This document shows positions 13,929 to 30,610 of a stretch of DNA of 64,000 nucleotides, one piece after another. Both the position numbers and the translations under genes were made by a program. Source of the DNA: Escherichia coli (GTDB lineage: Bacteria > Pseudomonadota > Gammaproteobacteria > Enterobacterales > Enterobacteriaceae). Where the stretch lies: NCBI RefSeq assembly GCF_050920415.1, contig NZ_CP169309.1; one strand, written 5' to 3'. The notes under the pieces were generated by a model, which was not told the origin of the DNA, made no database searches, and saw only the letters and a list, made by a program, of their open reading frames with translations. Each line of letters begins with the position of its first letter. Within the stretch, counting starts at the first letter, position 1.

Positions 13929-14133
13929 GGACATAAATCCATTTTATCAATAAGATACAAGGAAGTGTCAGCTGACAAAAGGTATTCTATTTCATCTTTT
14001 GTCAACCATTCACGGCGCAAATATACGCCTTTTTTTGTGATCACTCCGGCTTTTTTCGATCTTCATACTTGTATGGTAGTAGCTCAGTTGCGTAGATTTC
14101 ATGCATCACGACAAGCGATGCAAGGAATCGAAC

Positions 14134-15348
14134 ATGAAGATCGTAAAGGCTGAAGTTTTTGTTACCTGTCCGGGGCGTAATTTCGTCACATTAAAAATCA
14201 CCACTGAGGACGGTATTACGGGCCTTGGGGATGCCACCCTCAATGGACGTGAGCTTTCCGTGGCCTCTTATTTGCAGGATCACCTTTGTCCGCAGCTTAT
14301 TGGTCGCGATGCACAGCGTATCGAAGATATCTGGCAGTTTTTCTATAAAGGTGCTTACTGGCGTCGCGGTCCGGTGACGATGTCGGCCATTTCAGCGGTT
14401 GATATGGCGTTGTGGGATATTAAAGCCAAAGCTGCCAACATGCCGCTTTACCAGTTACTCGGCGGCGCGTCTCGTGAAGGGGTGATGGTTTATTGCCATA
14501 CCACCGGTCACAGTATTGATGAAGCTCTGGATGATTATGCCCGTCATCAGGAGCTGGGATTCAAAGCCATCCGCGTGCAGTGCGGAATCCCTGGTATGAA
14601 AACCACCTACGGCATGTCGAAAGGCAAAGGTCTGGCTTATGAACCCGCAACCAAAGGACAGTGGCCGGAAGAGCAGCTGTGGTCGACGGAGAAATACCTC
14701 GATTTCATGCCGAAATTGTTTGACGCGGTACGTAACAAGTTTGGTTTTAATGAACATTTGCTGCATGACATGCACCATCGCTTAACGCCTATTGAAGCGG
14801 CGCGCTTTGGTAAAAGCATTGAAGATTATCGCATGTTCTGGATGGAAGACCCGACGCCTGCGGAAAACCAGGAATGCTTCCGTCTCATTCGCCAACATAC
14901 CGTCACACCCATCGCGGTGGGTGAAGTCTTCAACAGCATCTGGGACTGCAAACAGCTGATTGAAGAACAACTTATCGACTATATCCGCACCACGCTGACT
15001 CACGCGGGGGGGATTACCGGTATGCGCCGGATTGCCGATTTTGCTTCGTTGTATCAGGTACGTACTGGCTCACACGGTCCTTCCGATTTGTCACCAGTCT
15101 GCATGGCTGCGGCGCTGCACTTTGATCTGTGGGTCCCCAATTTCGGTGTCCAGGAATACATGGGCTATTCCGAACAAATGCTCGAAGTCTTCCCGCACAA
15201 CTGGACTTTCGATAACGGCTATATGCATCCGGGAGACAAACCGGGTCTTGGCATCGAATTCGATGAAAAGCTGGCGGCGAAATATCCCTATGAACCTGCT
15301 TATCTGCCAGTCGCACGTCTGGAAGATGGCACGCTGTGGAACTGGTAA
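14134..15348 (+). CDS. rspA: starvation-sensing protein RspA (enolase-superfamily mannonate dehydratase-like)
   Basis: 404 aa from Met12 of ORF 14101..15348; recognised RspA sequence. Confidence 0.95.
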
Positions 15349-15359
15349 GGAGTAAGATA

Positions 15360-16379
15360 ATGAAAAGCATTTTAATTGAAAAACCGAATCAACTGGCAAT
15401 TATCGAACGCGAAATACCCACCCCGTCAGCGGGTGAAGTTCGAGTAAAAGTGAAACTTGCCGGAATTTGTGGTTCAGATAGCCATATTTATCGTGGGCAT
15501 AATCCTTTTGCGAAATATCCGCGCGTCATTGGACATGAATTCTTTGGCGTCATTGATGCAGTGGGTGAAGGCGTGGAAAGCGACAGAGTCGGTGAACGCG
15601 TTGCTGTCGATCCGGTGGTCAGCTGTGGGCATTGCTATCCGTGCTCTATAGGTAAGCCGAACGTTTGTACGACACTGGCTGTATTAGGTGTGCACGCTGA
15701 CGGTGGTTTCAGTGAATATGCCGTGGTGCCGGCAAAAAATGCGTGGAAAATTCCTGAAGCAGTGGCCGATCAATATGCGGTGATGATCGAACCTTTTACC
15801 ATTGCGGCTAACGTTACCGGTCATGGTCAACCGACTGAAAATGATACCGTTCTGGTTTACGGTGCAGGTCCAATCGGCCTGACGATCGTTCAGGTATTAA
15901 AAGGCGTCTATAACGTTAAGAATGTGATTGTTGCCGATCGCATTGATGAACGACTGGAAAAAGCGAAAGAGAGCGGGGCAGACTGGGCGATTAATAACAG
16001 CCAGACACCGCTTGGCGAGATTTTCGCTGAAAAAGGCATAAAGCCGACATTAATTATCGATGCGGCTTGTCATCCTTCAATCCTGAAAGAAGCCGTAACG
16101 CTGGCTTCTCCAGCGGCACGTATTGTATTGATGGGCTTCTCCAGTGAACCGTCTGCAGTGATTCAGCAAGGAATTACCGGAAAAGAACTCTCTATTTTCT
16201 CTTCACGCTTAAATGCAAATAAATTCCCGGTCGTTATCGACTGGTTAAGTAAAGGGTTAATTAAACCAGAAAAACTAATTACCCATACGTTTGATTTCCA
16301 GCATGTTGCTGATGCCATTAGTTTATTTGAACAGGATCAAAAGCATTGCTGCAAAGTCTTACTCACTTTTTCTGAATAA
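15360..16379 (+). CDS. rspB: starvation-sensing protein RspB (zinc-dependent alcohol dehydrogenase family)
   Basis: 339 aa from Met9 of ORF 15336..16379; GHE...CGxC zinc motifs and Rossmann GAGPIG. Confidence 0.95.
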   Translation: MKSILIEKPNQLAIIEREIPTPSAGEVRVKVKLAGICGSDSHIYRGHNPFAKYPRVIGHEFFGVIDAVGEGVESDRVGERVAVDPVVSCGHCYPCSIGKPNVCTTLAVLGVHADGGFSEYAVVPAKNAWKIPEAVADQYAVMIEPFTIAANVTGHGQPTENDTVLVYGAGPIGLTIVQVLKGVYNVKNVIVADRIDERLEKAKESGADWAINNSQTPLGEIFAEKGIKPTLIIDAACHPSILKEAVTLASPAARIVLMGFSSEPSAVIQQGITGKELSIFSSRLNANKFPVVIDWLSKGLIKPEKLITHTFDFQHVADAISLFEQDQKHCCKVLLTFSE

Positions 16380-16436: not shown

Positions 16437-16544
16437 ATGACAATAGAAAAACACGAAAGAAGCACTAAGGATTTGGTGAAAGCAGCAGTATCGGGATGGC
16501 TGGGCACTGCGCTTGAATTCATGGATTTCAAGAGTCATGAATAG
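16437..16544 (+). pseudogene. ydfJ: 5' fragment of an MHS/MFS-family transporter gene truncated by prophage insertion (attL junction)
   Basis: ATG then MTIEKHERSTKDLVKAAVSGWLGTALEFMDF (MHS signature G-x3-E-F/W-x-D-F), then reads into phage DNA and stops after 4 codons; integrase gene lies immediately beyond. Confidence 0.6.
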
Positions 16545-16566
16545 TAACCATTTGATAATTAATAAA

Positions 16567-17847
16567 TTAATTTTTCACCACCTCGTTTTGGGGCATGGTT
16601 GGGGCAAACTCGCTTAGCTGTGTATTTAACAGGGCTACCTGTGCATTATTGTTTTCAGACATCCATTTCCCGTATACCTGAAACACCATTTGCGCATCTG
16701 CATGTCCCATCTGGTTTGCTATGAATGCCGGGTTGGCACCGGCTGTCAACGACCAGCAGGCATAAGTATGTCTCGACTGATATGATTTGCGGTGGCGGAG
16801 GCCAGCGCGCTTTATCGCTGCGTCCCACATCTGCCTTATTGAGTCAACGGTAAAATGGTCACCATAATTTTTTACTCTCGCTGACACTTCAGGTTGAAAA
16901 ACAAAGGTGCATTTTTGTTTTTCTGTTCTGCCGAACTCTCTGAGGTGAACGTCAATAATATGTTCTTTGCTCAGCCTCGTTAGTGTCATCTGACTCCTGA
17001 GAGCGTCGATTGCAGGCTTGATAAGGTGAATTACCCGATTGGTACCAGCCTGTGTTTTCGGTACCGTAAAACGATCTTTTGCTAAATTTCTCCTGATCAT
17101 CATTGTTCCATTTTTCAGATCTATGTCCTCCCACCCAAGCGCACACAGTTCACCAGGGCGAATGCCTGTATAAACAGAAACACACCATAAATTTTTGGCC
17201 TGCTGATTTCTGCAGGCGTCGATAAGACGGATAAATTCCTCCCGTGAAAGAGGATCAGGAATGGTTCTTGATTCCTTTAATGGCGAGATCCCCTTAAACG
17301 GATTATCTGCCAGGTAACCGTTATCAACACCAAACTGGAACACGGCGTTAAGATTTGTCATGTAATTATTTACAGTTACAGCCGATCTCCCTGGTTGTGT
17401 AACAATATAGTTACTTTTGGGGATCTGGTATCCAGTCAGTAGCTCTTTACGAACCTCCAGTAATTTTTCTTTATTAATCGATGAGGCAAGATTTTTTTCA
17501 CCGATTATGCTCAGGATATTTTTGATGACGGCACGGTATGTGTTGAGTGATGCTTTGGCGACTTCAGTTTCTTTCAGTGCCAGAAATTTTTCAGCCAGTT
17601 CTTTTATGGTTAAATCTTGTCGGGCCTCACCAAATTTTTCCAGATTGCGTGAGGAGGGAAACTGTTTTGCATAGTCGAAAACACCAGTTTTTATTGCGTA
17701 ACAAACAGAGGAGCGTAGTTCACCTGCAACGCGCCTGTTTTTTGCTGTGTCAGGAACCCCCAGATTTTCCCTGACTCTTACGCCTTTATAAACAAACCAG
17801 ATACGTAATTTCCCTCCATGGTTTTCCACGCCTGTCGGATATTTCAT
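16567..17847 (-). CDS. int: phage integrase (tyrosine recombinase)
   Basis: ORF 16567..17862; start taken at second ATG (MKYPTG) preceded by purine-rich RBS; C-terminal catalytic domain with conserved R...H-x-x-R...Y; adjacent to att junction. Confidence 0.9.
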   Translation of the reverse strand: MKYPTGVENHGGKLRIWFVYKGVRVRENLGVPDTAKNRRVAGELRSSVCYAIKTGVFDYAKQFPSSRNLEKFGEARQDLTIKELAEKFLALKETEVAKASLNTYRAVIKNILSIIGEKNLASSINKEKLLEVRKELLTGYQIPKSNYIVTQPGRSAVTVNNYMTNLNAVFQFGVDNGYLADNPFKGISPLKESRTIPDPLSREEFIRLIDACRNQQAKNLWCVSVYTGIRPGELCALGWEDIDLKNGTMMIRRNLAKDRFTVPKTQAGTNRVIHLIKPAIDALRSQMTLTRLSKEHIIDVHLREFGRTEKQKCTFVFQPEVSARVKNYGDHFTVDSIRQMWDAAIKRAGLRHRKSYQSRHTYACWSLTAGANPAFIANQMGHADAQMVFQVYGKWMSENNNAQVALLNTQLSEFAPTMPQNEVVKN

Positions 17848-17881
17848 TTCAACTTCTCTCATTAGTTAGTGTGGCTTTTAG

Positions 17882-18133
17882 TCAAGTAAGATGACGTCTT
17901 GGTCTCGCTGATGCCTGGCGCTCAATCCAGCGATCAATTTCTTCCAGGTTGTAAAAGCATGGACTGTTATCCCATGGCATACCGTCATGAGCGACATGCT
18001 TATATTCCCTTCCTTCCATAAACGATTTTTCCCGGGCCTTTTTTAACGTACCTTTTTTTATTCCTTTCAGCGCAATTAACTGCTCTTCGGATACCCATTT
18101 GCCGGGAGAGACAATCATGATTACTTCGCTCAT
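17882..18133 (-). CDS. xis: excisionase-like small DNA-binding protein
   Basis: 83-aa ORF immediately upstream of int in the same orientation. Confidence 0.55.
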   Translation of the reverse strand: MSEVIMIVSPGKWVSEEQLIALKGIKKGTLKKAREKSFMEGREYKHVAHDGMPWDNSPCFYNLEEIDRWIERQASARPRRHLT

Positions 18134-18205
18134 CGATTTCTTTATCTCTTACATCAGACGAGCGCCGGTTGCAGAATACCAGTCACAACCGGCGACAGTT
18201 GAACA

Positions 18206-20677
18206 TTAAGAATCAGCCTGACTCGGGATCAGTTTTTGCCAGATAACTGAAACGTATTTTGCCTGGTAACGGGCGTCATCAAGTGCATTATGGCGCTCAC
18301 CTTCGAATGGAATAGCCGTTCTGGCATCGAAGTCTATGGCTTTCCCCAGCTCAACGATTGTGCGTACATCGCGATCGTTGTAGTAACGCCACGGGCAGGG
18401 GATCCCCTGCCGTTCGTATGAACGGCGCAAAATCGTGTTGTCGAAGTTGGCTCCATTTCCCCAGACCTGAACAAAAAATTCACCGGAGTTTTCGTCGATA
18501 AATTCCCGCAATTGTAACAGTGCATCATCTAACGGGATTTCATCGGTCATAATGGCAGATTGCGCTTCGCGTGATTGCTTAAGCCACCATTTAATGGTGT
18601 CCCGATCAATGACTCCGCCAGCAGTTTCCAGATCGATAGTCTTACTAAATTCCGGTCCCATATCTCCGGTTTGCGGATCGAAAAATATTGCACCTATTGA
18701 GATAATCGGGGCATCAGGATTTTTTCCCATGGTTTCAAGGTCGATCATTAGATGGTCACACGTCCTGCTGGTGGATGTGATAACGTGATGACCGTTCACC
18801 GCAATTAAGGGATCTGCCGTCTCGCCAGTTTCATTATTGCTGGCGTGGTCCTGAGCGCTGCCAGCATTCTCCTTGTGTGGATGTTCAGCGCCTTCCATTT
18901 CCTCCGGATCATTTTCCTGAACTTCAACCTGATTCTCTTCATCGAATGTTTCTTGGTATGTTGCGTCGCCCATCACCGCACCACAATCAGGGCAGTTGCC
19001 GCCGCCGGTCTGACCGCATGCGGTGCAGACTTTTTCCGCTTCCTGTTGCGCTACTGGCTCAGGTTGTTTCGTTTCTGGCTCGTTTTGTAACGCATTTGGG
19101 CTGTTTTGTTCTGCTTTCTGGTCGTTCTGTTCCGTTTCTTGCTGGTTCTGATTCACTGAATCGCGGGTTTCAATCCCCTTCACCCATTTCGGATCATTCG
19201 GGTCGCTAATCCCTGCAACAAATTCACCACGTGATACAGCAAGCAACTTATCGGCGTCAGGCTGGCTGATATTGGCTGCCTGCATAATTTTGTTTACTTC
19301 GTCAGCGGTAACTTTTACCGGCTCTGGTTGTGCGGTCGTGTCAGATGCACCAGTATTTTGTTGTGAACCTGAGTATGTACCGTTTTTACGGGCAAAATAT
19401 TCTTCTTTCGTGATTTCAGTAGCCCCTGCAGTCAGCGCCTTATTCAGACCAGAAAGTTTGTTTGCGCGACCATATTTTTCGCCATCCTTGTCGGTGAAGA
19501 GGAAGTAGAACGGCCCCTCACGCTCTACAGATGGTTCGACTTCCACTTTGCATTCGGTTTTTTCGTTGTCCGGAATTGCCGTTTCCACTGCATCAGTTTC
19601 TGGTACTGGCGACGAGAGAGTATCAGTTGCGCTCTGATTTCTTCCTTCATCTTCAAACACGCCCTTTGTAGTCAGGTATTCAGTAATGTATTTGTTCAGT
19701 GTCACAGGGTCTTTGTGAATGTCGATCGGACGTTCACGGACAAGGCCAAAAATAGTCTGGCGGTCGTAGCGAAGGGCATCAGGCTGTTTGCGCATTGATG
19801 CCGAGATACGCTTCCAGTCTTCGCGGTCGTTGTCGATAACTTCATTTTTTGCCCAGCGATGGATGCTGCCGTCAATGTTTCCGGCATCCACATCACCAGG
19901 CCAGAGAGCGTAGGCCAGTTCGTCATCCAGTGTTTTCCATGTCTGCTTGTATTCGCGATGAGTGGCAGCAATGACCGGGCTGATTTTTCCTGTTGAATTG
20001 TCAGTGTACTGTTGATTGGCTCTGGCGCGGGCGAGATCAACAACAGACGTGTATTTTCCGGTTTCCTTGCGTTCACCTTCGCGACGTTTTTTCCAGATGC
20101 GCATCTCTGCCTGAATTTCGGGCCATTTAGCACCAGGAATACATTTATGCTTAACCCACCCAATGGCGTGCAACTTAAGCTCCGGATACATGGCGTTAAC
20201 TTCTGGCATTTTCATCAACGCTTCAACGATATGTCCGTCGAATGTTGCCATGTCTTCCTGCAACAATTCCTGTGCGCTAATAACCATATCAACGGTGATG
20301 TTTTCACATGTGTCGAACTTAACCAGGACCGCGTTCTGTACTTCAGGGGACAGCTTGTCAAAATTGACGTTCATCGGATCGGATTCTGGTTCGACCGGGA
20401 CAAAGGAAGCGCCTTCCTCATCCCAGCGGTTTTCCAGCATATATTCGGTATCCCAGGAGTCGATGGCAGGGCGGGGCATGCCGGGTTTATCCTCGCAGAC
20501 AAGAAATTTATAAGCGCAGTCCTGAGCAGCCGGATATTGCTCCAGGAATTGCCAGGTAAATTTGGCTCGGGCGCGACGTTCGTCGCCGGCTTCAATGGCA
20601 GTGGCTACAGCGACTGCACCTTCTTCCTTTATTGCCTGTTCGTCCGGAATGGCGGCGCAAATAAAGACTTTACTCAT
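18206..20677 (-). CDS. large prophage early protein with C-terminal DnaQ-like DEDDh 3'-5' exonuclease domain and CxxC zinc-ribbon
   Basis: 823-aa ORF; C-terminal motifs DLETMG, WGNGANFD, HNALDDA; CTACGQTGGGNCPDCG zinc-ribbon-like segment; acidic linker. Confidence 0.75.
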   Translation of the reverse strand: MSKVFICAAIPDEQAIKEEGAVAVATAIEAGDERRARAKFTWQFLEQYPAAQDCAYKFLVCEDKPGMPRPAIDSWDTEYMLENRWDEEGASFVPVEPESDPMNVNFDKLSPEVQNAVLVKFDTCENITVDMVISAQELLQEDMATFDGHIVEALMKMPEVNAMYPELKLHAIGWVKHKCIPGAKWPEIQAEMRIWKKRREGERKETGKYTSVVDLARARANQQYTDNSTGKISPVIAATHREYKQTWKTLDDELAYALWPGDVDAGNIDGSIHRWAKNEVIDNDREDWKRISASMRKQPDALRYDRQTIFGLVRERPIDIHKDPVTLNKYITEYLTTKGVFEDEGRNQSATDTLSSPVPETDAVETAIPDNEKTECKVEVEPSVEREGPFYFLFTDKDGEKYGRANKLSGLNKALTAGATEITKEEYFARKNGTYSGSQQNTGASDTTAQPEPVKVTADEVNKIMQAANISQPDADKLLAVSRGEFVAGISDPNDPKWVKGIETRDSVNQNQQETEQNDQKAEQNSPNALQNEPETKQPEPVAQQEAEKVCTACGQTGGGNCPDCGAVMGDATYQETFDEENQVEVQENDPEEMEGAEHPHKENAGSAQDHASNNETGETADPLIAVNGHHVITSTSRTCDHLMIDLETMGKNPDAPIISIGAIFFDPQTGDMGPEFSKTIDLETAGGVIDRDTIKWWLKQSREAQSAIMTDEIPLDDALLQLREFIDENSGEFFVQVWGNGANFDNTILRRSYERQGIPCPWRYYNDRDVRTIVELGKAIDFDARTAIPFEGERHNALDDARYQAKYVSVIWQKLIPSQADS

Positions 20678-20757
20678 TTTGTTTTAACCTCATTACAGAT
20701 TTAAGGGTGAACAAATCCCTGCCATTGCTGGCATATAAAAATGAAACCGGATATTAA

Positions 20758-20961
20758 TTACGGTGCTGTTTTAAGTCCTGCCGGGATTTCGTTATTGTCC
20801 ATGCGAATAACTTTCTCAACCGGATAACAGTTGCCGGGAATTTTCTGTTCCGCTGCGGCAGCCATGCATTCTTTCATTGAGTCATGTATACCAATAACAA
20901 GATCAACTGGCTCGCCCGTATTAAGAAAAACCGTCAGAACGAGTGCAAATGCTGTATTCAT
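20758..20961 (-). CDS. ydfD: YdfD-like small protein (lysis-associated protein of Qin-type prophages)
   Basis: 67 aa from MNTAFALVLTVFL within ORF 20758..21015; hydrophobic N-terminus; directly downstream of dicB as in Qin. Confidence 0.55.
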   Translation of the reverse strand: MNTAFALVLTVFLNTGEPVDLVIGIHDSMKECMAAAAEQKIPGNCYPVEKVIRMDNNEIPAGLKTAP

Positions 20962-21146
20962 TGCCAGTATCCTTTTTGCATCAGACGTAAACGGGCCAGC
21001 ATTGATACAATGCATATTTGATTTAATAGCTCCCGTTCGTGTTTTCTCTTATTAATGGCATCTTCAGTAAATACAGGGTTACTGATTCTGACACCAATTT
21101 CAAAACAACCTTCAGACGTATTAACGTTTGGTAATAACGTTTCCAT
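20958..21146 (-). CDS. dicB: cell division inhibitor DicB
   Basis: C-terminal 62 aa of ORF 20958..21242 (METLLPNVNTSEGCFEIGVRISNPVFTEDAINKRKHERELLNQICIVSMLARLRLMQKGYWQ) closely match the recalled K-12 DicB sequence. Confidence 0.85.
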   Translation of the reverse strand: METLLPNVNTSEGCFEIGVRISNPVFTEDAINKRKHERELLNQICIVSMLARLRLMQKGYWQ

Positions 21147-21334
21147 TATCGCGTCCTCAACAATGAATTTTGTGATACGGTGCCTGGTGCCTCCAGGTGA
21201 CGTTAACCAGTTAACAATTAACGCCGGATACAGAGAACCCACCCATAAGAACCAATACGGAAGTCAACTGGCCTTTTTAACTGTTCCGCGTGCGCTTAGC
21301 CGCATTCACCGCATCACAAAATTCACTTTAAAAA

Positions 21335-21387
21335 GGGCGGCAGAGCAGTCACGGAGTAAAACTGATACCGCCAAACGTCACCAGAAA
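21335..21387 (-). ncRNA. dicF: DicF small regulatory RNA (ftsZ-targeting sRNA)
   Basis: Minus-strand sequence TTTCTGGTGACGTTTGGCGGTATCAGTTTTACTCCGTGACTGCTCTGCCGCCC matches the 53-nt DicF followed by a T-run; about 190 bp upstream of dicB as in Qin. Confidence 0.8.
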
Positions 21388-21898
21388 ATTGATAACAGAG
21401 GGCGTTGCAGCGGGGTTGCCACTTAAGCGTATGGTCAACCTGACAACCCGGTGTCCTCAACGGGGAAGGAATAACCCCGCCATACTTACCGCCGCGCCAT
21501 TTCGCGGATTGCCACAACCGGAAGCGCACAGACGAAGATGTCAGTGGTACACAACAAAGGGAGGAATGACTTCGCCGTGCGCTTTCGCGTTATGCCCTGA
21601 CTTTTCAGGGATATATCCTTTCAGTAAACTGTTTGTGCCGGATTCTTATCCGTGTCCGGCGCACGACCACGCGCTGTCACGTGTGGTCTCCATTCTCAAC
21701 CAGTAACCTCAATGGAGGATAAAATTAAAATGGTCAGCAAACTAAATTAGACTCGCTGGAAGATTCATTATTAAACAGCGCGTTTAAATTATATTCTTGA
21801 ATGTTTTGGGGATAACCTTGCTGCTGAGGAAGGCTATCCAAACCATGTCGATGGTTTCGAAGCGATATATCTTTATCTATCCCGTAAACATGGATGGA

Positions 21899-22300
21899 CT
21901 ATTTCACAGTGTCGTTTAATGCCACTGGATGATATTCGCCTTGCTCTTTCGTTAGAGCTATCAGGGTGGCGACTCCCTGATGATGCAAAGATTGACGACC
22001 ATCATTCTCACGATGATATAAGTTGTTAAGTTCCAGTAGTTTGGCTTTTGCAATGGCCTCTACAGATTTCCAGAATTTGTGGGGGTCTGTACTCTCTTCC
22101 TGTTCGTCAGGAATGTTATTGTCCTCAACAGAAACAGAATACAGTCCGGTAAACGCATCGCGCACATTACGAGCCATATTATCAATGTCTTTTTTCGTTT
22201 CAGCTTCTAATGCAACTTCGTTCAGACGTTGACGAAGTGTATGTGCTGCAATTTCTTGGATTTCTTTTGGTAACTCTTTAAATTCCATAGTCAACCTCAT
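21899..22300 (-). CDS. hypothetical prophage early protein (pL operon)
   Basis: 133-aa ORF between the immunity region and dicF; no recognised motif. Confidence 0.45.
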   Translation of the reverse strand: MRLTMEFKELPKEIQEIAAHTLRQRLNEVALEAETKKDIDNMARNVRDAFTGLYSVSVEDNNIPDEQEESTDPHKFWKSVEAIAKAKLLELNNLYHRENDGRQSLHHQGVATLIALTKEQGEYHPVALNDTVK

Positions 22301-22530
22301 CAGTCAGTGTTTCTGGCTAACCAGCGATGCGCGCCAGTTTCGGTTTTAAACGTTTTGCTTTTGGTATATGTCATCGCGGTGAACGTACCGTCCTGGTTGG
22401 GGAACACGCCACATACCAGAGATTCGCTGTTGCCAAGATCGATAGTATCCATGCTGACCTCATTTCCCCTTAACGCCGGGGTGGCGGAACAAAAACCTGC
22501 TGCATAGTTAAAGTTGAACCCTGCCGTCAT
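22300..22530 (-). CDS. hypothetical prophage early protein (first gene of leftward operon)
   Basis: 76-aa ORF directly downstream of the putative pL/OL region. Confidence 0.4.
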   Translation of the reverse strand: MTAGFNFNYAAGFCSATPALRGNEVSMDTIDLGNSESLVCGVFPNQDGTFTAMTYTKSKTFKTETGAHRWLARNTD

Positions 22531-22620
22531 GTTCTTACGCCTCGGGCTGGCTACTTAACCCCTGACCACTGCCTGGTAACTCGAAGTATTGCCCTGCGTT
22601 CTGTGGGGCGGGGTGGTATA

Positions 22621-22650
22621 CTATAAAACTAAATCTATTTAGTTTTATAG
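22621..22650. promoter_or_regulatory. 30-bp near-perfect palindrome, candidate OL operator for the CI-like repressor (approximate coordinates)
   Basis: CTATAAAACTAAAT-CT-ATTTAGTTTTATAG with 14-bp arms; shares the TTTTAG/CTAAAA half-site with inverted repeats in the cI-cro intergenic region; preceded by TATACT. Confidence 0.4.
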
Positions 22651-22673
22651 TCAAGCGCGATCTAGATATATTT

Positions 22674-22697
22674 AAAAAAAGGTCGACAAAGCCGACC
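22674..22697 (-). terminator. rho-independent terminator downstream of the repressor gene (approximate)
   Basis: Minus-strand hairpin GGTCGGCTTTGTCGACC followed by a 7-T run, about 25 nt after the cI stop. Confidence 0.5.
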
Positions 22698-22721
22698 TCT
22701 GATTGAAAAACAAAGTGGAAG

Positions 22722-23366
22722 CTATAGGCTGAACTGCACACCTTTTGCTACAGCAACAATTTTACATTCAGGTGTCAGTAAGGACGATTGATAGCGAGGA
22801 TTGAGGGGGCTTAAATACACGAGTTTTCCGTCGATGACTAATTTTTTTATAGTCATAGATGGTTCGTTTGTAAGCGGATCTGGGACTATTACAGCGACGA
22901 TACTACCATTTTTATATTTTTCTCTAGGCCTCATGATCACTGTGGCACCAACCGGAATGCTTGGCGACCCTGATGGGTTGTGCATAGTGTCATCAGGCAT
23001 TGAAACGGCAAAATCCCCCTCCTTGACGTCAAAGAATGTGGTGATTCTGTCGGCATTTCCCATAGTTTTCTCTCCTTCTAAAATTAGGAAAGAAATTGCT
23101 TCCCCCCATGAAAGATAGGGGATTTGGGTGCCTGAATTGTTCTGCACAAGGGTAGGTTCAGTAGACGATACTCCATATAGGAGATAGGACTCAGTAGTTC
23201 CTAGTGCTTGGGCTAATTTACTAAGAGCTTTGCTACCGGGTTCGTTTAGGTCTTTCTCCCAGTACCCTATAGTTACCCCTGTTACGCCAGAAAGCTTGCC
23301 CAGTTCGACTTGGGTCAGTCCCTTGTCTTTTCTGAGTCTCTTAAGCCTAATGCCAAGGCTTTCCAT
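22722..23366 (-). CDS. cI: CI-like prophage repressor (HTH_XRE plus S24 LexA-like autopeptidase)
   Basis: 214 aa from third ATG (RBS GGGAG); N-terminal HTH (LTQVELGKLSGVTGVTIGYWE); C-terminal S24 fold with Ser in GDFAVSM and Lys in TIKKL; divergent to cro-like gene. Confidence 0.9.
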   Translation of the reverse strand: MESLGIRLKRLRKDKGLTQVELGKLSGVTGVTIGYWEKDLNEPGSKALSKLAQALGTTESYLLYGVSSTEPTLVQNNSGTQIPYLSWGEAISFLILEGEKTMGNADRITTFFDVKEGDFAVSMPDDTMHNPSGSPSIPVGATVIMRPREKYKNGSIVAVIVPDPLTNEPSMTIKKLVIDGKLVYLSPLNPRYQSSLLTPECKIVAVAKGVQFSL

Positions 23367-23372
23367 CATCAT

Positions 23373-23464
23373 CTCCCGTGAATTGAATATAAATTATTTT
23401 AGATTGCATTGACCTAAAAAAAATTATCCTTTAATCTAAAAATACTTAGTTTTAGGAGGGTGAA
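23373..23464. promoter_or_regulatory. divergent pRM/pR promoter-operator region (OR)
   Basis: TTGACC-17 nt-TAATCT promoter reading into cro; inverted repeats TTTTAG...CTAAAA and CTAAAA-N8-TTTTAG; AGGAGGG RBS before cro ATG. Confidence 0.6.
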
Positions 23465-23692
23465 ATGCGAGTTGATGAACTTGTCCAGTTTTTTGGCTCT
23501 GTTCAGAGAGTTGCCGATTTTTATGGGATAACCCGTGAAGCTATATACATGTGGCGCAAACGTCCTGGTGAAATAGTTCCCAAGGGGAGGGCCGCGGAAG
23601 CTGCCGCATACTCCAAGGGAAAATTATCTTTGAACCCAGAACTTTACAAAAAGAAGGATAACACCTTGAACGAAGGAAAGAATGATTCATGA
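23465..23692 (+). CDS. cro: Cro/DicC-like small repressor
   Basis: 75-aa ORF with strong RBS, divergent from cI; HTH-like segment (VADFYGITREAIYMWRK). Confidence 0.8.
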   Translation: MRVDELVQFFGSVQRVADFYGITREAIYMWRKRPGEIVPKGRAAEAAAYSKGKLSLNPELYKKKDNTLNEGKNDS

Positions 23693-24114
23693 AAATCAAG
23701 CATGAACACATCCGCATGGCTATGAATGCCTGGGCGCGTCCGGATGGTGAAAAAGTTCCGGCGGCCAAGATAACCAGGGCTTATTTCGAACTGGGAATGA
23801 CGTCCCCGGAACTGTACGACGACAGCCATCCAGAAGCCCTGGTTCGTAATACTCAGAAAATTTTCCGCTGGGTGGAGAAAGACACCACTGATGCGGTTGA
23901 AAAAATTCAGGCGTTGTTACCAGCAATCGAAAAAGCAATGCCACCTCTGCTGGTGGCCCGGATGCGCAGCCACAGTTCAGCCTATTTTCGGGAGTTGGTG
24001 GAGACGCGGGAACGACTGGTGAGAGACGCTGATGATTTTGTCGCAGTGGCAATCGCCGGTTTCAATCAGATGAATCGTGGTGGCCCGGCAGGAAATGCTG
24101 TGGTGATGCACTAA
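23689..24114 (+). CDS. YdaT-like (CII-position) regulatory protein
   Basis: 141-aa ORF start-overlapping the cro stop; position and size match the Cro(YdaS)/YdaT pairs of Rac-type prophages. Confidence 0.55.
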   Translation: MKIKHEHIRMAMNAWARPDGEKVPAAKITRAYFELGMTSPELYDDSHPEALVRNTQKIFRWVEKDTTDAVEKIQALLPAIEKAMPPLLVARMRSHSSAYFRELVETRERLVRDADDFVAVAIAGFNQMNRGGPAGNAVVMH

Positions 24115-24964
24115 AAGCACGGTGTTCGGGGTTTTTTATGAGCAGCAAGCTTCATGGTCTTGTCTGGGAAGGGTGCGCCTTCACCGGCATGATCTTATCC
24201 AGGGTGGCAGTAATGGCTCGCCTTGCAGACTACAGCAATGACGAAGGTGTGTCATGGCCTGCAGTGGAGACCATTCGTCGTCAGATTGGGGCAAAGAGTG
24301 AATCAACGGTTAAAGCGGCGATAGCGGAACTGGAAAAGAACGGCTGGCTGACGAAGGAGGAGCGTAAGGTCGGTGGGCGTAATGAAAGCAATATCTACCG
24401 CCTTAATGTGGAAAAACTCGAAGCAGCAGCTGAGGCGGCGCGTGAGGCATATAAACCGAAAAGAAAAATTAGCCCGGCAAAAAATGACCCGTTAACAGTT
24501 GACCAGTCAAATATTGCCCCCTCAACGGTTGACCCGTCAAATTTTGATGGATCAACCGTTGGTAAAAAACAGCCGGTTAGGGGGGCGATGGTTGGCCCCG
24601 ATCCGTCAGTATTAAAACCTGATCCGTCAGATAAAAGATCTTTTCGTCCGGAAGCTTCGCAACCGGACCCGCAGACGGCTGAACAGGATTTTTTAACCCG
24701 ACATCCTGATGCGGTTGTGTTTAGTGCAAAAAAACGTCAGTGGGGAACTCAGGAGGATTTGGCATGCGCACAGTGGATCTGGGGGCGAATCGTGAGTCTT
24801 TACGAACAGGCCGCCAGCGATGATGGCGAGATCACCCGACCGAAAGAACCCAACTGGACAGCATGGGCCAATGACGTGCGCATAATGCGGATGCTGGATG
24901 GCAGAACTCACAGACAAATCTGTGAACCGCCCCGGGTTTCCTGGAGAGTGTTTTATCTGTGAAC

Positions 24965-25831
24965 TCAGGCTGCCAGATCATTGTTTCCGATGGAAGCATA
25001 ATAAGCTTTTTCTGCTTCTGCCGGAGGAGTATGGCCCAGCCTTCCCAGCAATCGTCGATTGTTATACCAGTCCACCCACGTGAGTGTGGCCAGTTCCACT
25101 TCTGCACGGTTTTTCCAGCTCTTACGGTGTATTACCTCCGCTTTGTAAAGACCATTGATGCTCTCAGCCATCGCGTTGTCATACGAGTCGCCTGTACTCC
25201 CTGTTGATGCCAGCAGTTTTGCTTCTTTTAGTCGCTCCGTATAGGCCAGTGACACATACTGAGAGCCTTTATCGCTGTGATGGATGGTGCCAGACGGACG
25301 ACGGGCCCACAACGCCTGCTCCAGCGCATCCAGCACGAATGTCGTTTCCATAGACGATGAGACCCGCCACCCCACGATGTATCCGGCAAACACATCAATG
25401 ATGAACGCCACATAGACGAAGCCCTGCCATGTGCTGACGTAAGTAAAATCAGCCACCCACAGCTGGTCAGGACGTTCTGCCACGAACTGACGGTTTACGC
25501 GGTCACCTGTGGCAACGGTTTTCCGGCTGACGGTAGTGCGGACCTTTTTACCCCGGAGAACACCGGCAAGTCCCATAACCGCCATGAGGCGCGCCACTGT
25601 ACATCTGGCCACCCTGATTCCTTCCCGTAACAACTGACGCCAGACTTTACGCACACCGTACACCTGATGATTTTCATCGTATACGCGCTGTATCTCTCTC
25701 TTCAGCCAGTCATCGCGCTGCGCACGGGCACTGCGTTTATCAGGATGATGCCGCTGCTGCTGACAATGGTAATACGTTGACGGGGCAATATGCAGTTCAC
25801 TGCATACCGGTCCGACCCCCGTACTGCTCAC
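24965..25831 (-). CDS. IS3-family transposase OrfB (DDE integrase domain)
   Basis: 288-aa ORF with DDE catalytic region; expressed as OrfAB by -1 frameshift. Confidence 0.85.
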   Translation of the reverse strand: MSSTGVGPVCSELHIAPSTYYHCQQQRHHPDKRSARAQRDDWLKREIQRVYDENHQVYGVRKVWRQLLREGIRVARCTVARLMAVMGLAGVLRGKKVRTTVSRKTVATGDRVNRQFVAERPDQLWVADFTYVSTWQGFVYVAFIIDVFAGYIVGWRVSSSMETTFVLDALEQALWARRPSGTIHHSDKGSQYVSLAYTERLKEAKLLASTGSTGDSYDNAMAESINGLYKAEVIHRKSWKNRAEVELATLTWVDWYNNRRLLGRLGHTPPAEAEKAYYASIGNNDLAA

Positions 25832-25852
25832 GCAGCTTATCCAGCAGTGGCA

Positions 25853-26179
25853 TTATTTTTTCCAGAGGCGGTCGAACTCCGCCTTCGCAAAATAAGCGGA
25901 AGCCTGGCGAAGGATATCGTTACTGCGGCGCAGTTCACGATTTTCACGTTCCAGCTCTTTCAGACGCTGACGTTCAGCGGTGGTGAGCCCACCATCACCG
26001 CTCCCGGTATCCCTCTCATGCTGGCGAACCCAGACACGCAGAGTCTCTGGCGTACAGCCAATCTTTGGAGCAATGGAACAAATTGCCGCCCATTGTGAGT
26101 CATATTCGCCCTGACTTTCCAGAACCATACGAACTGCGCGTTGACGGACTTCGGGGGAAAAACGAGTATTTTTAGTCAT
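25853..26179 (-). CDS. IS3-family transposase OrfA (HTH and leucine zipper)
   Basis: 108 aa, [19 protein letters not shown]...; recognised IS629-type OrfA. Confidence 0.85.
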
Positions 26180-26454
26180 CCTGTTTACCTCTTTCTCAGG
26201 AAGTTTAGTCTCCAGGATTTCCGGGGCGGTTCACTGCGAAATGTTTGGTCGGGTACAGCGGGATCCATTCTGGGTAAAAAACATCATGAGCCCGTCAAAA
26301 CTTCGCGATAAATGGGATGAGCTGGTTATCCGTCTGGGGCGTTCGCCTGTACAGCGTTGTGTGAATCATATTTCTGAACCTGACACCGAAATTCCACCAG
26401 GGTTCAGGGGGTAGGTATTGATTTCAGATCATGAGGTAATTTTCAGGAGGACTT

Positions 26455-26877
26455 GTGGCAAAAGTTTTTACACAAGAAGAGCGGGAAAAAATTAAGGGAC
26501 AGGTTGTTGCACTCGTACGCCAGAGTGGGCGCGAGACGTTACGACAGCTGGAAGCTAAAACAGGTGCGACAAGATATCTGATTAGCGTTCTTGCCTGGGA
26601 GCTGGTTGCCAGTGGCGATGTATACAACTCTGGCTATGGGTTATTCCCGTCAGAACAGGCTCGTAAGGACTGGCAAAACGCCCGCAAAAAACTATCGAGG
26701 GCAAAGGGGAAGAAACCGTCTATGGTTGATCCGGACCTTATCTGGTCATTACCTGACGGAGAAATTCGTCGCTACGATAGTCGCCATAACATGGTTTGTC
26801 GCGAGTGTCTGGAAAGTGAAGTAATGCAGCGAGTGTTGGCATTTTATCAGGGAAATGTTCGCTATTTATTGAAGTGA
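26455..26877 (+). CDS. hypothetical protein, possible DNA-binding regulator
   Basis: 140-aa ORF, GTG start with AGGAGG RBS; sits where a helicase loader would be in lambda. Confidence 0.45.
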   Translation: MAKVFTQEEREKIKGQVVALVRQSGRETLRQLEAKTGATRYLISVLAWELVASGDVYNSGYGLFPSEQARKDWQNARKKLSRAKGKKPSMVDPDLIWSLPDGEIRRYDSRHNMVCRECLESEVMQRVLAFYQGNVRYLLK

Positions 26878-27341
26878 CGAGATTAAAGAGCATTAATACA
26901 TATGTGAATTGACATTTCTGTGGCACAGGGCTAGAACTATTCTCATTGTCAGCGTTGTGCCAGAGTCTGATGTTTGTTGTACATTTGGACGAATAGACGG
27001 CGTTGTTAACTTTAAAAATAACACAGGAACACTTTGAGAAAGTGAACAGGCGTATTTATTTTTTGCTGATGAAGGAGAGTAACTTTAATTTGGGTAATTA
27101 GATTGATAATAGGCCAGACGAAAATAACATTCTGGCACACTTTTGGTCGCTACAGTCATTAGTTAATTTTAAGTGATAAATTTTTATCCATAAGTTAACA
27201 CTAGTGTGTCATCTAGCGAAACCGAATCGCTTTAATCCATAACTTAAAGTTGAATCAGTGGGGTAGCAGTAGGTATGCCGGAACTGATAAACTGTGCAGA
27301 AGGCTAAACATTCATTCACTCGTGAGATAGTAGCATAAATT

Positions 27342-27686
27342 ATGCAAAGAATTATTCCTGATAAAAATTGGTGGGAAAAAGAGCGTATTAATCGTAAAGC
27401 ATCATCAAAATGCCCATATGCTAGTTCATACAGATGTCCTCGGTACTATCAGAGTGTAGTTTTGCTCTCAAGCATCAATATGATAGCTGGTATGGCAACT
27501 AGGAAAGAAAAAGAGTTGGGCGAATTTGGGGAAAGAACTAGTTTCTCATATTTATGTGATGAAGAAGTCCCAACAGTTACTACAAAAGAATATGGCGGCC
27601 TTGCATCAGTTAGTAATTTTTGCCCAGAAATATCATTTAGATATTTACACTATTACGCCGATTATATGTGTAAATATGTTGATTAG
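27342..27686 (+). CDS. hypothetical Cys-containing protein (low-GC cassette A, gene 1)
   Basis: 114-aa ORF in markedly AT-rich DNA after a 460-bp AT-rich non-coding leader; Cys pairs CPY...CPRY. Confidence 0.4.
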   Translation: MQRIIPDKNWWEKERINRKASSKCPYASSYRCPRYYQSVVLLSSINMIAGMATRKEKELGEFGERTSFSYLCDEEVPTVTTKEYGGLASVSNFCPEISFRYLHYYADYMCKYVD

Positions 27687-27755
27687 ATAGATCAGGATAC
27701 TGGCAGGCGTAGTGCGGAAAAAGATAATTTAGAAAATGATTGGAAATATACATGG

Positions 27756-28208
27756 ATGTCAGTCAATCCTAAATTTTATTTAGATTGCGATGTTTTTGAA
27801 AGTGTCAAAAACTTCAATGAAGAATTGGCTAGTGATTACTTAAAGAGATTGCATCCAAATATCATTCAGCAAATAGATAGAATGAATAATTGCTTGGATA
27901 ATAATGACCCTGCGGGTGCACTGCACGCAGCCTCTAATATTCTAGAAACTATGGCGAAGGAAATCACTCAAAACCCGAATGTGGCAAATGAGTCATTGGG
28001 TGGTTTTTTTAAACAGTTCGAAAAAATGTCAAAATTACCTAAGAATCTTATTGATATTGTTAAAGATATTTATGATTTACGCAACAAACTACCTACTGCT
28101 GGACACGGAAGCTTGAACAGGCCTGAATTAACTATGGTAGAAGCTATAACTATTGCGGCAATGACAAAGGCGATTTTAGAAATTGAATATCGAAGCAAAG
28201 CCATCTAA
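27756..28208 (+). CDS. hypothetical protein (low-GC cassette A, gene 2); C-terminal R-N-x5-G-H-G segment possibly HEPN/Abi-like
   Basis: 150-aa ORF; predicted mostly helical; DLRNKLPTAGHGSLNRPE near C-terminus; no confident family assignment. Confidence 0.45.
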   Translation: MSVNPKFYLDCDVFESVKNFNEELASDYLKRLHPNIIQQIDRMNNCLDNNDPAGALHAASNILETMAKEITQNPNVANESLGGFFKQFEKMSKLPKNLIDIVKDIYDLRNKLPTAGHGSLNRPELTMVEAITIAAMTKAILEIEYRSKAI

Positions 28209-28705
28209 CAAACATAAATTATGTGGTTCAAATTCCCGCTATACTTCTGTGTTATTGCCGCCAGCGTCTACTTATCGCTGTGAGTTCAACGGGGCGATGA
28301 TGCGTTAGAGATCTCTGAATCGATTGAAGTCTAAGGTTGTCAGGGCTGTAACAGTAGCCCTGTGTCATGAAAGGATTGCATATTAATTAACGAAGAACAG
28401 ACCAATAGCATTGATAGTTGTTTTCAAAAATAGACCAATAACAAACACGACTGGCCATCTCATCGATTTTCGACAGTATGCAGAAATGGGCGGGATCCAC
28501 ACGCAGTACCAGCTTGCTAAGATAAACGAAAAGGAGACTTTAACCAGTCAGTGGCTGCATGCTGATGGTGATCCGCTATGGGCCGTAGATGTTGTTTGAT
28601 GTACGCAGAAAGAGACGACGAAGGGCACTATGCCGAAAACTAAATCGGTTTTAGAGATTAACCGCGCTGGTGAGCTGGAGTGATTGACTTTTAGAACGCC
28701 AGAAA

Positions 28706-28733
28706 GCAAAAACCTCACAATCGAGTGAGGTTT
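28706..28733. terminator. bidirectional rho-independent terminator between the two accessory cassettes (approximate)
   Basis: Hairpin AACCTCAC-aatcgag-GTGAGGTT flanked by an A-run upstream and T-run downstream; immediately 3' of the minus-strand cassette. Confidence 0.5.
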
Positions 28734-28746
28734 TGTTAAGGGCTTA

Positions 28747-29379
28747 CTATTTTTTGGCAATTAGTGCATGCATCGCCATTTCATGACCTTTTCTGCGAAG
28801 TTTTTTCACACGGGGCTTGAGCCTAGTGAAAGAACTTGGGCTAATTGTCGACTCAGCTTCAACTATATCATTGCGGGGAGCACCCGTTTTAGCATCTTCA
28901 TAGCGGATAAGTATTTTAAACGTGCCCTCATCAACTCCGACACCTTGCAAGTGATGAAGTTTAGATGAAACAGCACCGATTAAATAATCATGAATTCCTT
29001 GCAGGCCCGTTTTACCGATTGGTGAATAGGTATGCAACATATTTGCACCTACAGGAAGGAACTGGCGAAAGTCAGGAACATGCATCTTGTTAACTTCAAC
29101 AGAAGTGTATGCTTTCATGTCAAAAGAAACTCCAGGTTTCCGTGCATTGACTTCTAGCCATTGAGGCAAATCGAGAATATATTTGCTCTCAGCAGTTACT
29201 TCCAGTTTCTTCCTAGACGATAATGTCACGTCCATTACCTGAGCCATATCAGCCATAGAAAGCTCAGCGGCCTTCCGGTTGATGGCTTGTACCCGCTCGC
29301 TCACGTTAGGTCCGAATGCATCGAACAACGAAATTTCAGCAGCTGGTTTAATGGCTTCAGTTTTAACAGACATATACAC
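28747..29379 (-). CDS. hypothetical protein, partner of zeta-like kinase (cassette B, gene 2)
   Basis: 210-aa ORF about 19 nt downstream of the kinase gene on the same strand; no recognisable motif. Confidence 0.5.
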   Translation of the reverse strand: MYMSVKTEAIKPAAEISLFDAFGPNVSERVQAINRKAAELSMADMAQVMDVTLSSRKKLEVTAESKYILDLPQWLEVNARKPGVSFDMKAYTSVEVNKMHVPDFRQFLPVGANMLHTYSPIGKTGLQGIHDYLIGAVSSKLHHLQGVGVDEGTFKILIRYEDAKTGAPRNDIVEAESTISPSSFTRLKPRVKKLRRKGHEMAMHALIAKK

Positions 29380-29398
29380 TCCTTAGATAGGACACTTA

Positions 29399-30097: not shown

Positions 30098-30261
30098 CGG
30101 TAAATCATGCCGTGGTAGTTTTAGTTTTATTTAACAATATCATAAACGTTTAAAGATGGTTACAAATTAGCTAGATTTGTGAGCGCTTTAACCTCTAAAA
30201 CCCTCTGGAACCCAATACCGCTTTTCTGGCTGTCTTTTCAATACGGCATCCAGCGCATCAC

Positions 30262-30600: not shown

Positions 30601-30610
30601 TTTAACAGAT

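What the first reader, a model, noticed from the sequence alone, without database searches (positions are those of the whole stretch)
16437..16544. Prophage attL lies inside an MHS-family transporter gene (ydfJ-like), the integration site of K-12 Qin
Only the first 31 codons of the transporter, up to the E-F-x-D-F signature, precede phage DNA, and the integrase gene abuts the junction. This suggests a complete or more complete relative of the defective Qin prophage at the same site.
Basis: partly seen in the sequence, partly recalled or inferred. Interest (0 to 1): 0.35.

Follow-up and report, generated by a model that had tools for sequence, protein, structure and literature searches.

The report
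Prophage junction inside the ydfJ gene
This is the left end of a lambda-like prophage that has inserted into the E. coli transporter gene ydfJ, the same well-known site that holds the Qin remnant in K-12, so it is real but ordinary.

Summary
Window 16437-16529 is the first 31 codons of ydfJ, an MHS-family MFS transporter gene. Phage DNA starts at 16530. An intact tyrosine integrase gene ends 37 nt further on, followed by an excisionase gene.

The window ends in the tail genes, so the other prophage end is not in it. In the closest complete genome (NZ_CP169399.1, 100% identical across the junction) a single prophage of about 48 kb ends at the missing 3' part of ydfJ. Both junctions share the 11-bp core TCATGGATTTC. 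Joining the two ydfJ halves at the core gives a 455-aa YdfJ identical to that of strains with an empty site.

The window is colinear with K-12 through rspB, ynfP and intQ at 97.1% identity. About 5.2 kb of Qin recurs here in the same order, including dicB and DicF. The prophage is therefore a far more complete relative of Qin. It is probably still defective, because of three IS elements and apparent frameshifts in G and J.

The ydfJ site and its att sequence are already published, and about 42% of complete E. coli genomes carry this junction. The 35-aa ORF is the counterpart of the K-12 small protein YnfP. The finding is already known and of low interest.

The parts
14101..16379 (+). rspA and rspB, the chromosomal genes directly upstream of ydfJ (context)
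   Evidence: ORFs. Annotated as rspA and rspB in the 100%-identical relative and in K-12.
16437..16529 (+). 5' fragment of ydfJ: the first 31 codons, ending in the E-F-M-D-F motif
   Evidence: Identical to intact ydfJ. Reconstituted YdfJ is 455/455 identical to WP_000151245.1 and scores 462.9 bits on TIGR00883, above the 443.45 cut-off.
16437..16544 (+). Chimeric 35-aa ORF: 31 ydfJ codons plus 4 phage codons and a stop. It is the counterpart of K-12 ynfP.
   Evidence: K-12 YnfP is MTIEKHERSTKDLVKAAVSGWLGTALEFMDFKSHAC, so the first 34 residues are identical.
16519..16529 (.). att core TCATGGATTTC, identical at attL and attR. The strand exchange is inferred to lie within it.
   Evidence: Longest common substring of the two junctions. 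Seven-sequence alignment of attB, attL, attR and attP. The K-12 and mEp460 variant is TTATGGATTTC.
16512..16532 (.). Imperfect palindrome CTTGAATTC-ATG-GATTTCAAG spanning the core; candidate core-type Int binding sites (inferred)
   Evidence: the repeat finder I4: 9-nt arms, 89% complementary, 3 nt apart.
16530..16610 (.). P' arm of the phage att site, including two direct copies of TTGGGGCA (16588-16595 and 16599-16606) as candidate arm-type Int sites
   Evidence: Three copies occur in the 700-nt reconstructed attP against 0.42 expected, at the same positions in phage mEp460 attP.
16567..17862 (-). Tyrosine integrase (annotated start 17847, 426 aa), intact
   Evidence: PF12167 Arm DNA-binding 82.8 bits and PF00589 66.9 bits. 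100% identical to WP_000876994.1. 96% nt identity to the integrases of phages mEp460, HannyBb and Tritos. Counterpart of the K-12 intQ pseudogene.
17882..18133 (-). Excisionase
   Evidence: PF06806 108.1 bits. Annotated as an excisionase family protein.
18206..20677 (-). Exonuclease, the full-length counterpart of the K-12 ydfE pseudogene
   Evidence: PF16473 226.5 bits. Window 19911-21665 matches K-12 ydfE, ydfD, dicB and dicF at 90.6%.
20761..21386 (-). ydfD-like (DUF1482) gene, dicB and DicF sRNA: hallmark Qin genes
   Evidence: tblastn hits at 100%. DicF matches Rfam RF00039 at 76.7 bits, window 21335-21386.
16530..64000 (.). Lambda-like prophage body, which continues beyond the window. 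Regions: early 16.5-27 kb, Q and lysis 33-44 kb, head and tail 45-64 kb.
   Evidence: Annotation of the relative, colinearity, protein-by-protein check.
24927..26233 (-). IS3-family element that splits the HTH/O-like replication gene. Absent from the closest relative.
   Evidence: NF033516 305 bits. ALIL frameshift pseudoknot at 114 bits.
39636..40966 (+). IS2 inserted just downstream of the endolysin gene. Absent from the closest relative.
   Evidence: NF006918 IS2 TnpB 727.6 bits.
41237..43201 (+). IS21-family element (istA and istB), shared with the relative
   Evidence: annotation mapped through the offsets; ORFs.

Best explanation
Window 16437-16544 is the attL junction (host arm, core, phage arm: B-O-P') of a lambda-like temperate phage. 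Its heterobivalent tyrosine integrase recombined the phage attP with an attB lying at codons 28-31 of the transporter gene ydfJ.

The exchange took place inside the shared 11-bp core TCATGGATTTC. It left the ydfJ promoter side and 31 codons next to rspB. That fragment now reads into 4 phage codons and a stop, giving a 35-aa YnfP-like ORF. The remaining 424 codons were pushed about 48-51 kb away to attR, cut off from their promoter and from the first part of transmembrane helix 1. ydfJ is therefore inactivated for as long as the prophage stays.

The prophage is a mosaic and far more complete relative of K-12 Qin. It keeps intact int and xis, so excision that restores ydfJ exactly is possible in principle. 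IS insertions and apparent frameshifts probably stop it from making viable phage.

Shown here: the junction, the core, the distal half in a near-identical genome, exact reconstitution of ydfJ, and the relationship to Qin. Inferred: the exact cleavage positions, the Int binding sites, loss of transporter function, and the ability to excise.
For: - The junction sequence and ORFs are as described.
- NZ_CP169399.1 is 100% identical over the junction. It has int, xis and exo, about 48 kb of lambda-like genes, then 'ydfJ ... missing N-terminus' followed by ydfI.
- The 11-bp core is shared by attL and attR.
- The reconstituted attB matches empty-site genomes at 100%, and the reconstituted YdfJ is 455/455 identical to an intact YdfJ.
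- The reconstituted protein reaches the MHS family cut-off (TIGR00883).
- Free phages mEp460, HannyBb, Tritos and PhiR42_1 carry the same int-xis module. mEp460 and HannyBb have an attP that reads P-arm, core, P'-arm just as predicted.
- Int has an arm-binding domain and a catalytic domain.
- The window is colinear with K-12 through rspB, ynfP and intQ at 97.1%. The Qin genes ydfE, ydfD, dicB, dicF, ydfA, hokD/sok, ydfU and ydfO recur in order.
- Literature: ydfJ is a recognised lambdoid integration site with an experimentally derived attP and an 18-19-bp att sequence (PMC8112680). Qin truncates YdfJ by 28 codons and removes its promoter (PMC6379469). A lambda-like prophage lies between ydfJ and rspB in strain SE11 (PMC2608844).
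Against: - The window stops in the J/side-tail-fibre region, so attR of this particular genome was not seen.
- The source genome is not in the RefSeq complete E. coli set. The best record lacks two of the window's IS elements. It is also absent from the GTDB representatives.
- Prophages at ydfJ are known to form tandem clusters and to mediate chromosome inversions. The far end here could therefore be another prophage or an inverted segment rather than ydfJ.
- The cleavage sites and arm-type sites are inferred from sequence only. The TTGGGGCA count (3 against 0.42 expected, with a maximum of 4 in shuffles) is suggestive, not proof.
Confidence: 0.9

Rival explanations
1. The junction is attL, but in this genome the prophage is part of a tandem cluster or has recombined with another prophage (inversion). 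The 3' part of ydfJ would then not lie at the end of this prophage, but further away or elsewhere on the chromosome.
For: In strain MB07081 the identical prophage is directly preceded by the late region of another prophage, so tandem arrays occur at this site. The literature reports clusters of 2-4 prophages at ydfJ, and inversions between ydfJ prophages and those at ompW, ttcA or dusA. The window ends before attR.
Against: In the window the left flank is the native rspB-ydfJ' chromosome, not another prophage. The closest relative has a single prophage that ends at ydfJ.
Confidence: 0.08
2. The truncation of ydfJ is a deletion or illegitimate-recombination scar next to unrelated phage DNA, not a site-specific integration junction.
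For: Nothing specific. It is only possible in principle because attR is not in the window.
Against: The breakpoint falls exactly at the core shared with free-phage attP sequences and with K-12 Qin. The same junction occurs in 2308 of 5426 genomes. Joining the halves at the core restores ydfJ perfectly.
Confidence: 0.01
3. The 35-aa ORF is an independent, selected small-protein gene (YnfP) rather than a by-product of integration.
For: K-12 YnfP, which has the same first 34 residues, was detected by epitope tagging (PMC6001520 Table 1). The ORF keeps the native ydfJ translation start.
Against: 31 of its 35 codons are simply the start of ydfJ. The phage-encoded tail differs between lineages (KSHE* here, KSHAC* in K-12), as expected for an unselected read-through. 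No protein family matches it.
Confidence: 0.03

Closest known systems
Cryptic prophage Qin of E. coli K-12 MG1655 (1632277-1652745), with its ydfJ split, ynfP and intQ
   Same: Same attB in ydfJ and the same type of core (TTATGGATTTC in K-12, TCATGGATTTC here). The same chimeric ynfP ORF. The integrase is the counterpart of intQ, with 97.1% nt identity through the junction. ydfE, ydfD, dicB, DicF, ydfA, hok/sok, ydfU and ydfO homologues occur in the same order.
   Different: Qin is 20.5 kb with intQ truncated by IS2E, and has no xis and no head or tail genes. Here int, xis, exo and a full lambda-like morphogenesis set are present. The immunity region differs: a LexA-family repressor, Cro and YdaT here, against dicA and dicC in Qin. 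Only about 5.2 kb is alignable at the nucleotide level.
PPydfJ prophages of STEC/EPEC (Nakamura et al. 2021, PMC8112680, S7 Fig) and PP_SE11-3 of strain SE11 (PMC2608844)
   Same: Lambda-like prophages integrated in ydfJ next to rspB. Their att was defined from attP, attB, attL and attR alignments.
   Different: Those papers define an 18-19-bp att. I measure 11 bp of uninterrupted identity, extendable to about 19 bp if one mismatch and a 1-nt slip are allowed. I could not see their figure to compare base by base. No T3SS effector genes (nleC, nleG) appear in the relative's annotation of this prophage, and I ran no dedicated search for them.
Free lambdoid phages mEp460, HannyBb, Tritos and PhiR42_1
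   Same: Int and xis are about 96% identical at the nucleotide level. In mEp460 and HannyBb, whose attP I read, the P' arm is colinear with window 16530 onward and the P arm with the relative's attR side.
   Different: They are sequenced as phage genomes with attP. Their core has T where this prophage has C, and they carry a pin-type invertase near attP as Qin does.
Phage lambda Int/Xis/attP site-specific recombination
   Same: A heterobivalent tyrosine integrase with an N-terminal arm-binding domain and a C-terminal catalytic domain. int lies next to attP with xis upstream. A short core lies inside an imperfect inverted repeat, with repeated candidate arm sites in both arms.
   Different: The arm-binding domain family differs: the hit here is PF12167, whereas to my knowledge lambda's is a different Pfam family. 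The attB is different, lying inside a coding sequence and disrupting the gene, whereas lambda's attB is intergenic between gal and bio (my knowledge). Binding sites and overlap region have not been tested.

Membership tests
Prophage integrated at the ydfJ (Qin) attachment site | The 5' end of ydfJ, next to rspB, is followed directly by phage DNA with int proximal | tested here: met
   Colinear with K-12 rspB-ynfP-intQ at 97.1%.
Prophage integrated at the ydfJ (Qin) attachment site | The remainder of ydfJ lies at the distal prophage end (attR) | tested here: inconclusive
   Met in the closest genome NZ_CP169399.1, where the ydfJ 3' part is at 2546699-2547982 right after the tail-fibre assembly gene. 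It cannot be read for the window's own genome, because the window ends in the J/stf region and the source is not in the collections.
Prophage integrated at the ydfJ (Qin) attachment site | A short identical core at both junctions, and joining at the core restores an intact attB and gene | tested here: met
   The 11-bp core TCATGGATTTC. The 400-nt reconstituted attB is 100% identical to four empty-site genomes. YdfJ is 455/455 identical.
Prophage integrated at the ydfJ (Qin) attachment site | A matching attP exists in free phage genomes that carry the same integrase | tested here: met
   The attP of mEp460 and HannyBb reads P-arm, TTATGGATTTC, P'-arm.
Lambda-type heterobivalent tyrosine integrase | C-terminal tyrosine-recombinase catalytic domain | tested here: met
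   PF00589 at 66.9 bits against a cut-off of 27.1. PDB tyrosine recombinases match at E=2.6e-9. The catalytic residues R-K-H-R-H-Y were not checked individually.
Lambda-type heterobivalent tyrosine integrase | N-terminal arm-type DNA-binding domain | tested here: met
   PF12167 Arm-DNA-bind_2 at 82.8 bits, residues 9-72.
Lambda-type heterobivalent tyrosine integrase | Repeated arm-type sites in the P and P' arms of attP | tested here: inconclusive
   TTGGGGCA occurs at -148, +59 and +70 relative to the core end, conserved in mEp460. That is 3 observed against 0.42 expected, with a maximum of 4 in shuffles. There are no binding data.
Lambda-type heterobivalent tyrosine integrase | Catalyses integration and, with Xis, excision | not testable with these tools
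   It needs an induction or PCR experiment.
MHS family (TC 2.A.1.6) MFS transporter YdfJ | The full-length protein reaches the family model's curated cut-off | tested here: met
   Reconstituted protein: TIGR00883 at 462.9 bits against a cut-off of 443.45. Annotated 'MHS family MFS transporter YdfJ' in empty-site genomes.
MHS family (TC 2.A.1.6) MFS transporter YdfJ | The 35-aa fragment in the window is recognisable as a family member on its own | tested here: not met
   No Pfam or NCBIfam hit for the 35-aa ORF. Its identity rests on exact identity to the YdfJ N-terminus. It is a gene fragment, not a transporter.
K-12 small protein YnfP | Same position between rspB and int, and the same sequence | tested here: met
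   The first 34 of 35 residues are identical to K-12 YnfP, and the tail is E* against AC*.
K-12 small protein YnfP | The protein is made | not testable with these tools
   It was detected in K-12 by epitope tagging (PMC6001520 Table 1). It is untested for this strain.

The most novel reading that the evidence does not exclude
Int and xis are intact while replication, lysis and tail genes are damaged. The element could therefore act as a reversible genetic switch ('active lysogeny'): it would excise without killing the cell and restore ydfJ, reconnecting the rspA-rspB-ydfJ-ydfI sugar-acid cluster under conditions where the transporter is needed. The YnfP-like peptide might have a role of its own in the lysogen. 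Nothing here tests excision dynamics. Excision would restore ydfJ exactly, and both recombination genes are full length.
Probability: 0.04. Interest if true: 0.55.

Novelty: already known. Interest (0 to 1): 0.08.

Why it matters
It matters little beyond correct annotation. The short ORF after rspB should be labelled as the ydfJ 5' fragment (ynfP counterpart) and attL, not as a new gene. It also marks where the prophage starts in this window.

In general terms, occupancy of this site inactivates a putative sugar-acid transporter. It also separates ydfJ and ydfI from the adjacent rspAB genes in most complete E. coli genomes: 2009 of 5426 have an uninterrupted junction, and 2308 carry this rspB-int junction. 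Prophages at this site are also known substrates for chromosome inversions and prophage stacking. All of this is already in the literature.

Tried and rejected
- **Looking for attR in the window.** It is not there. The window ends at the J/side-tail-fibre boundary.
- **Looking for the window's own genome.** A 24.9-kb query covering both strain-specific IS insertions found no RefSeq complete E. coli genome with more than 89% coverage. An exact 31-nt IS-junction pattern found nothing in the GTDB representative genomes.
- **Assuming the window equals NZ_CP169399.1.** My first check was wrong, with an off-by-one error and then large mismatch counts. BLAST showed the cause: two extra IS elements in the window.
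- **Searching for the exact core CATGGATTTC in K-12 and the phages.** There was no hit, because they carry T instead of C one base before the ATG. Relaxing the pattern to ATGGATTT found them in K-12, mEp460 and HannyBb. Phage Tritos (L006) gave no hit even to the relaxed pattern, and I did not inspect its attP further.
- **Promoter and terminator scan of 16200-18300.** It gave fewer sites than shuffled controls and nothing relevant near the junction.
- **Treating the 35-aa ORF as a protein family member.** It had no hits.
- **The deletion-scar explanation.** Rejected because of exact reconstitution at a core shared with free-phage attP.

Full report
**1. What is at the coordinates**

Window 16437-16544 (+) is a 35-codon ORF, MTIEKHERSTKDLVKAAVSGWLGTALEFMDFKSHE*. 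It lies 57 nt downstream of rspB (15336-16379), which follows rspA (14101-15348). An ORF of 431 aa lies at 16567-17862 on the minus strand, 37 nt beyond codon 31. It has an arm DNA-binding domain (PF12167, 82.8 bits) and a phage-integrase catalytic domain (PF00589, 66.9 bits). An excisionase follows (PF06806, 108 bits), then an 823-aa exonuclease. GC content drops from about 0.50 to about 0.43 at this point.

**2. The ORF is the start of ydfJ**

I joined window 16437-16529 to the sequence that follows the same 11-mer at the far end of the prophage in the closest genome. The result is a 1368-nt ORF. Its product is 455/455 identical to the intact 'MHS family MFS transporter YdfJ' (WP_000151245.1) of strain 2013C-4282. 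It scores 462.9 bits on TIGR00883, metabolite/H+ symporter, against a cut-off of 443.45.

A 400-nt probe spanning the reconstituted junction is 100% identical to four genomes with an empty site. It is contiguous in 2009 of 5426 complete E. coli genomes.

**3. The other end**

The window does not contain attR. It ends at the J/side-tail-fibre boundary.

The closest record, NZ_CP169399.1 (strain MFDS1022581), is 100% identical over window 15900-18200. It is 99.4-100% identical over the rest, apart from two IS elements that only the window has. In that record the prophage runs int, xis, exo, immunity, replication, Q, lysis, head, tail, J, stf and tfa. It is followed immediately by 'ydfJ ... incomplete; missing N-terminus' and then ydfI, ydfZ and rspR. 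That is a single prophage of about 48 kb.

I could not find the window's own genome, either in the RefSeq complete E. coli set or in the GTDB representatives. For this strain the distal end remains inferred.

**4. The att core**

- attL reads ...GCGCTTGAAT**TCATGGATTTC**AAGAGTCATGAATAG...
- attR reads ...ACACCTATGAA**TCATGGATTTC**CAGTTATATTCGC....
- The uninterrupted identity is 11 bp, at window 16519-16529.
- Allowing one mismatch on the right (C/A, then AG) and a 1-nt slip on the left (TGAAT) extends the similarity to about 19 bp. That fits the '18- or 19-bp att sequence' reported for ydfJ prophages (PMC8112680), although I could not see their figure.
- K-12 Qin and the free phages mEp460 and HannyBb have TTATGGATTTC. 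The one difference sits at the synonymous third position of Phe28.
- The phage attP sequences read P-arm, core, P'-arm, exactly as predicted from attR and attL.
- attL contains the near-palindrome CTTGAATTC-ATG-GATTTCAAG, which is a plausible pair of core-type sites.
- TTGGGGCA occurs twice in the P' arm (16588-16595 and 16599-16606, inside the 3' end of int) and once in the P arm, at the same positions in mEp460. That is 3 observed against 0.42 expected by shuffling. These are candidate arm-type sites and are inference only.

**5. Relationship to Qin**

The window aligns with MG1655 without a break from 11275 to 17726 at 97.1%. This covers ynfC, speG, ynfB, ynfA, rspA, rspB, ynfP and intQ, and it stops where IS2E truncates intQ.

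Further Qin segments recur in the same order:
- ydfE, ydfD, dicB and dicF at 90.6%
- ydfA at 89.6%
- hokD/sok at 93.0%
- ydfU at 83.7%
- ydfO at 79.8%

Together with the int segment these make about 5.2 kb. Rfam confirms DicF (76.7 bits) and sok (108 bits).

K-12 ynfP (1652728-1652838) encodes MTIEKHERSTKDLVKAAVSGWLGTALEFMDFKSHAC. This is the same chimeric ORF with a slightly different phage-encoded tail. It was detected as a protein in K-12 (PMC6001520 Table 1). The window element is therefore a mosaic and much more complete relative of Qin.

**6. How complete the prophage is**

Every protein of the relative's prophage is present in the window at 94.7-100% identity. There are several defects:
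- An IS3-family element (24927-26233) splits the HTH/O-like replication gene.
- IS2 (39636-40966) and an IS21-family element (41237-43201) lie just downstream of the endolysin gene.
- G and J each align in two different reading frames, which implies frameshifts that may be real or sequencing errors.

The prophage is probably defective for lytic growth. Int and xis are full length, so excision remains possible in principle.

**7. Mechanism**

This is standard lambda-type site-specific integration. Int recombines attP with attB within the shared core, with host factors presumably assisting. Because attB lies at codons 28-31 of ydfJ, integration splits the gene. The promoter-proximal 31 codons read into 4 phage codons and a stop. 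The distal 424 codons lose their promoter and the first 28 residues, including the start of transmembrane helix 1. Ramisetty and Sudhakari described the same for Qin (PMC6379469). Excision by Int and Xis would restore ydfJ exactly.

**8. Comparison with what is known, and novelty**

ydfJ is an established lambdoid attachment site. It has been reported in K-12 (Qin), in SE11 (PP_SE11-3, 'between ydfJ and rspB'), and in O157, O26, O121, O145 and O177 STEC. Those reports include prophage clusters and inversions. Its attP has been determined experimentally.

Here, 2308 of 5426 complete genomes carry this rspB-int-xis junction at 80% coverage or more. An earlier survey found Qin in 48% of 638 strains. 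Nothing about this instance departs from that picture. The verdict is: a real feature, correctly interpreted, and already known.

**9. Remaining uncertainty**

In this particular genome the far end may be a tandem prophage or an inversion partner rather than ydfJ. The precise cleavage positions and Int binding sites are also untested.

Noticed in passing
window 24927-26233: An IS3-family element (288-aa transposase ORF on the minus strand, ALIL frameshift pseudoknot at 114 bits) splits the prophage HTH/O-like replication gene. It is absent from the closest relative NZ_CP169399.1.
   Followed up: partly
window 39636-40966 and 41237-43201: IS2 (TnpB model at 727.6 bits, 5-bp overlap consistent with a target duplication) and an IS21-family element (istA and istB) sit back to back just after the endolysin gene. 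They probably destroy the spanin region. IS2 is specific to the window; IS21 is shared with the relative.
   Followed up: partly
window ~60577 (J) and ~54744-54759 (G): The tail-tip gene J aligns to the relative's protein in two frames (aa 1-69, then aa 70-1159). The tail chaperone G also aligns in two frames. These are apparent frameshifts, either real or sequencing errors.
   Followed up: no
window 21335-21386 (-) and 20961-21146 (-): DicF sRNA (Rfam 76.7 bits) and dicB are present, the cell-division-inhibitor pair known from Qin. The immunity region is not dicA/dicC. It is a LexA-family repressor, Cro and a YdaT-family protein (22725-24111).
   Followed up: partly
window 30954-31128 (+): A sok antitoxin RNA (108 bits) lies next to a hok gene that the relative's annotation marks as partial. 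A zeta-toxin family gene lies nearby at 29399-30097 (-).
   Followed up: no
window 31738-32013 and 37198-37473: The same 92-aa hypothetical protein is encoded twice in the prophage, each copy 100% identical to the relative's protein. One copy precedes the DUF968/RusA/Q genes and the other follows the DNA methyltransferase.
   Followed up: no
L008 (NZ_CM129880.1) 773-1910: In strain MB07081 the identical prophage is directly preceded by another prophage's late region, which carries 'enterotoxin A family protein' and 'enterotoxin' genes. This is a tandem prophage array at this site with a possible LT-like toxin cargo.
   Followed up: no
phage records LC727844-LC727872: Fifteen 'Stx2a-converting phage' records end with about 320-1165 nt that match the att-proximal 3' end of this int gene at 89-92% and start at window ~16517. 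This suggests Stx2a phages with a related, mosaic integrase and att end.
   Followed up: no
window 16519 versus K-12 1652xxx and phage attP: The core is polymorphic (TCATGGATTTC against TTATGGATTTC). In each lineage examined the prophage and its host junctions carry the same variant, which is consistent with core sequence passing between phage and host during integration and excision cycles.
   Followed up: partly
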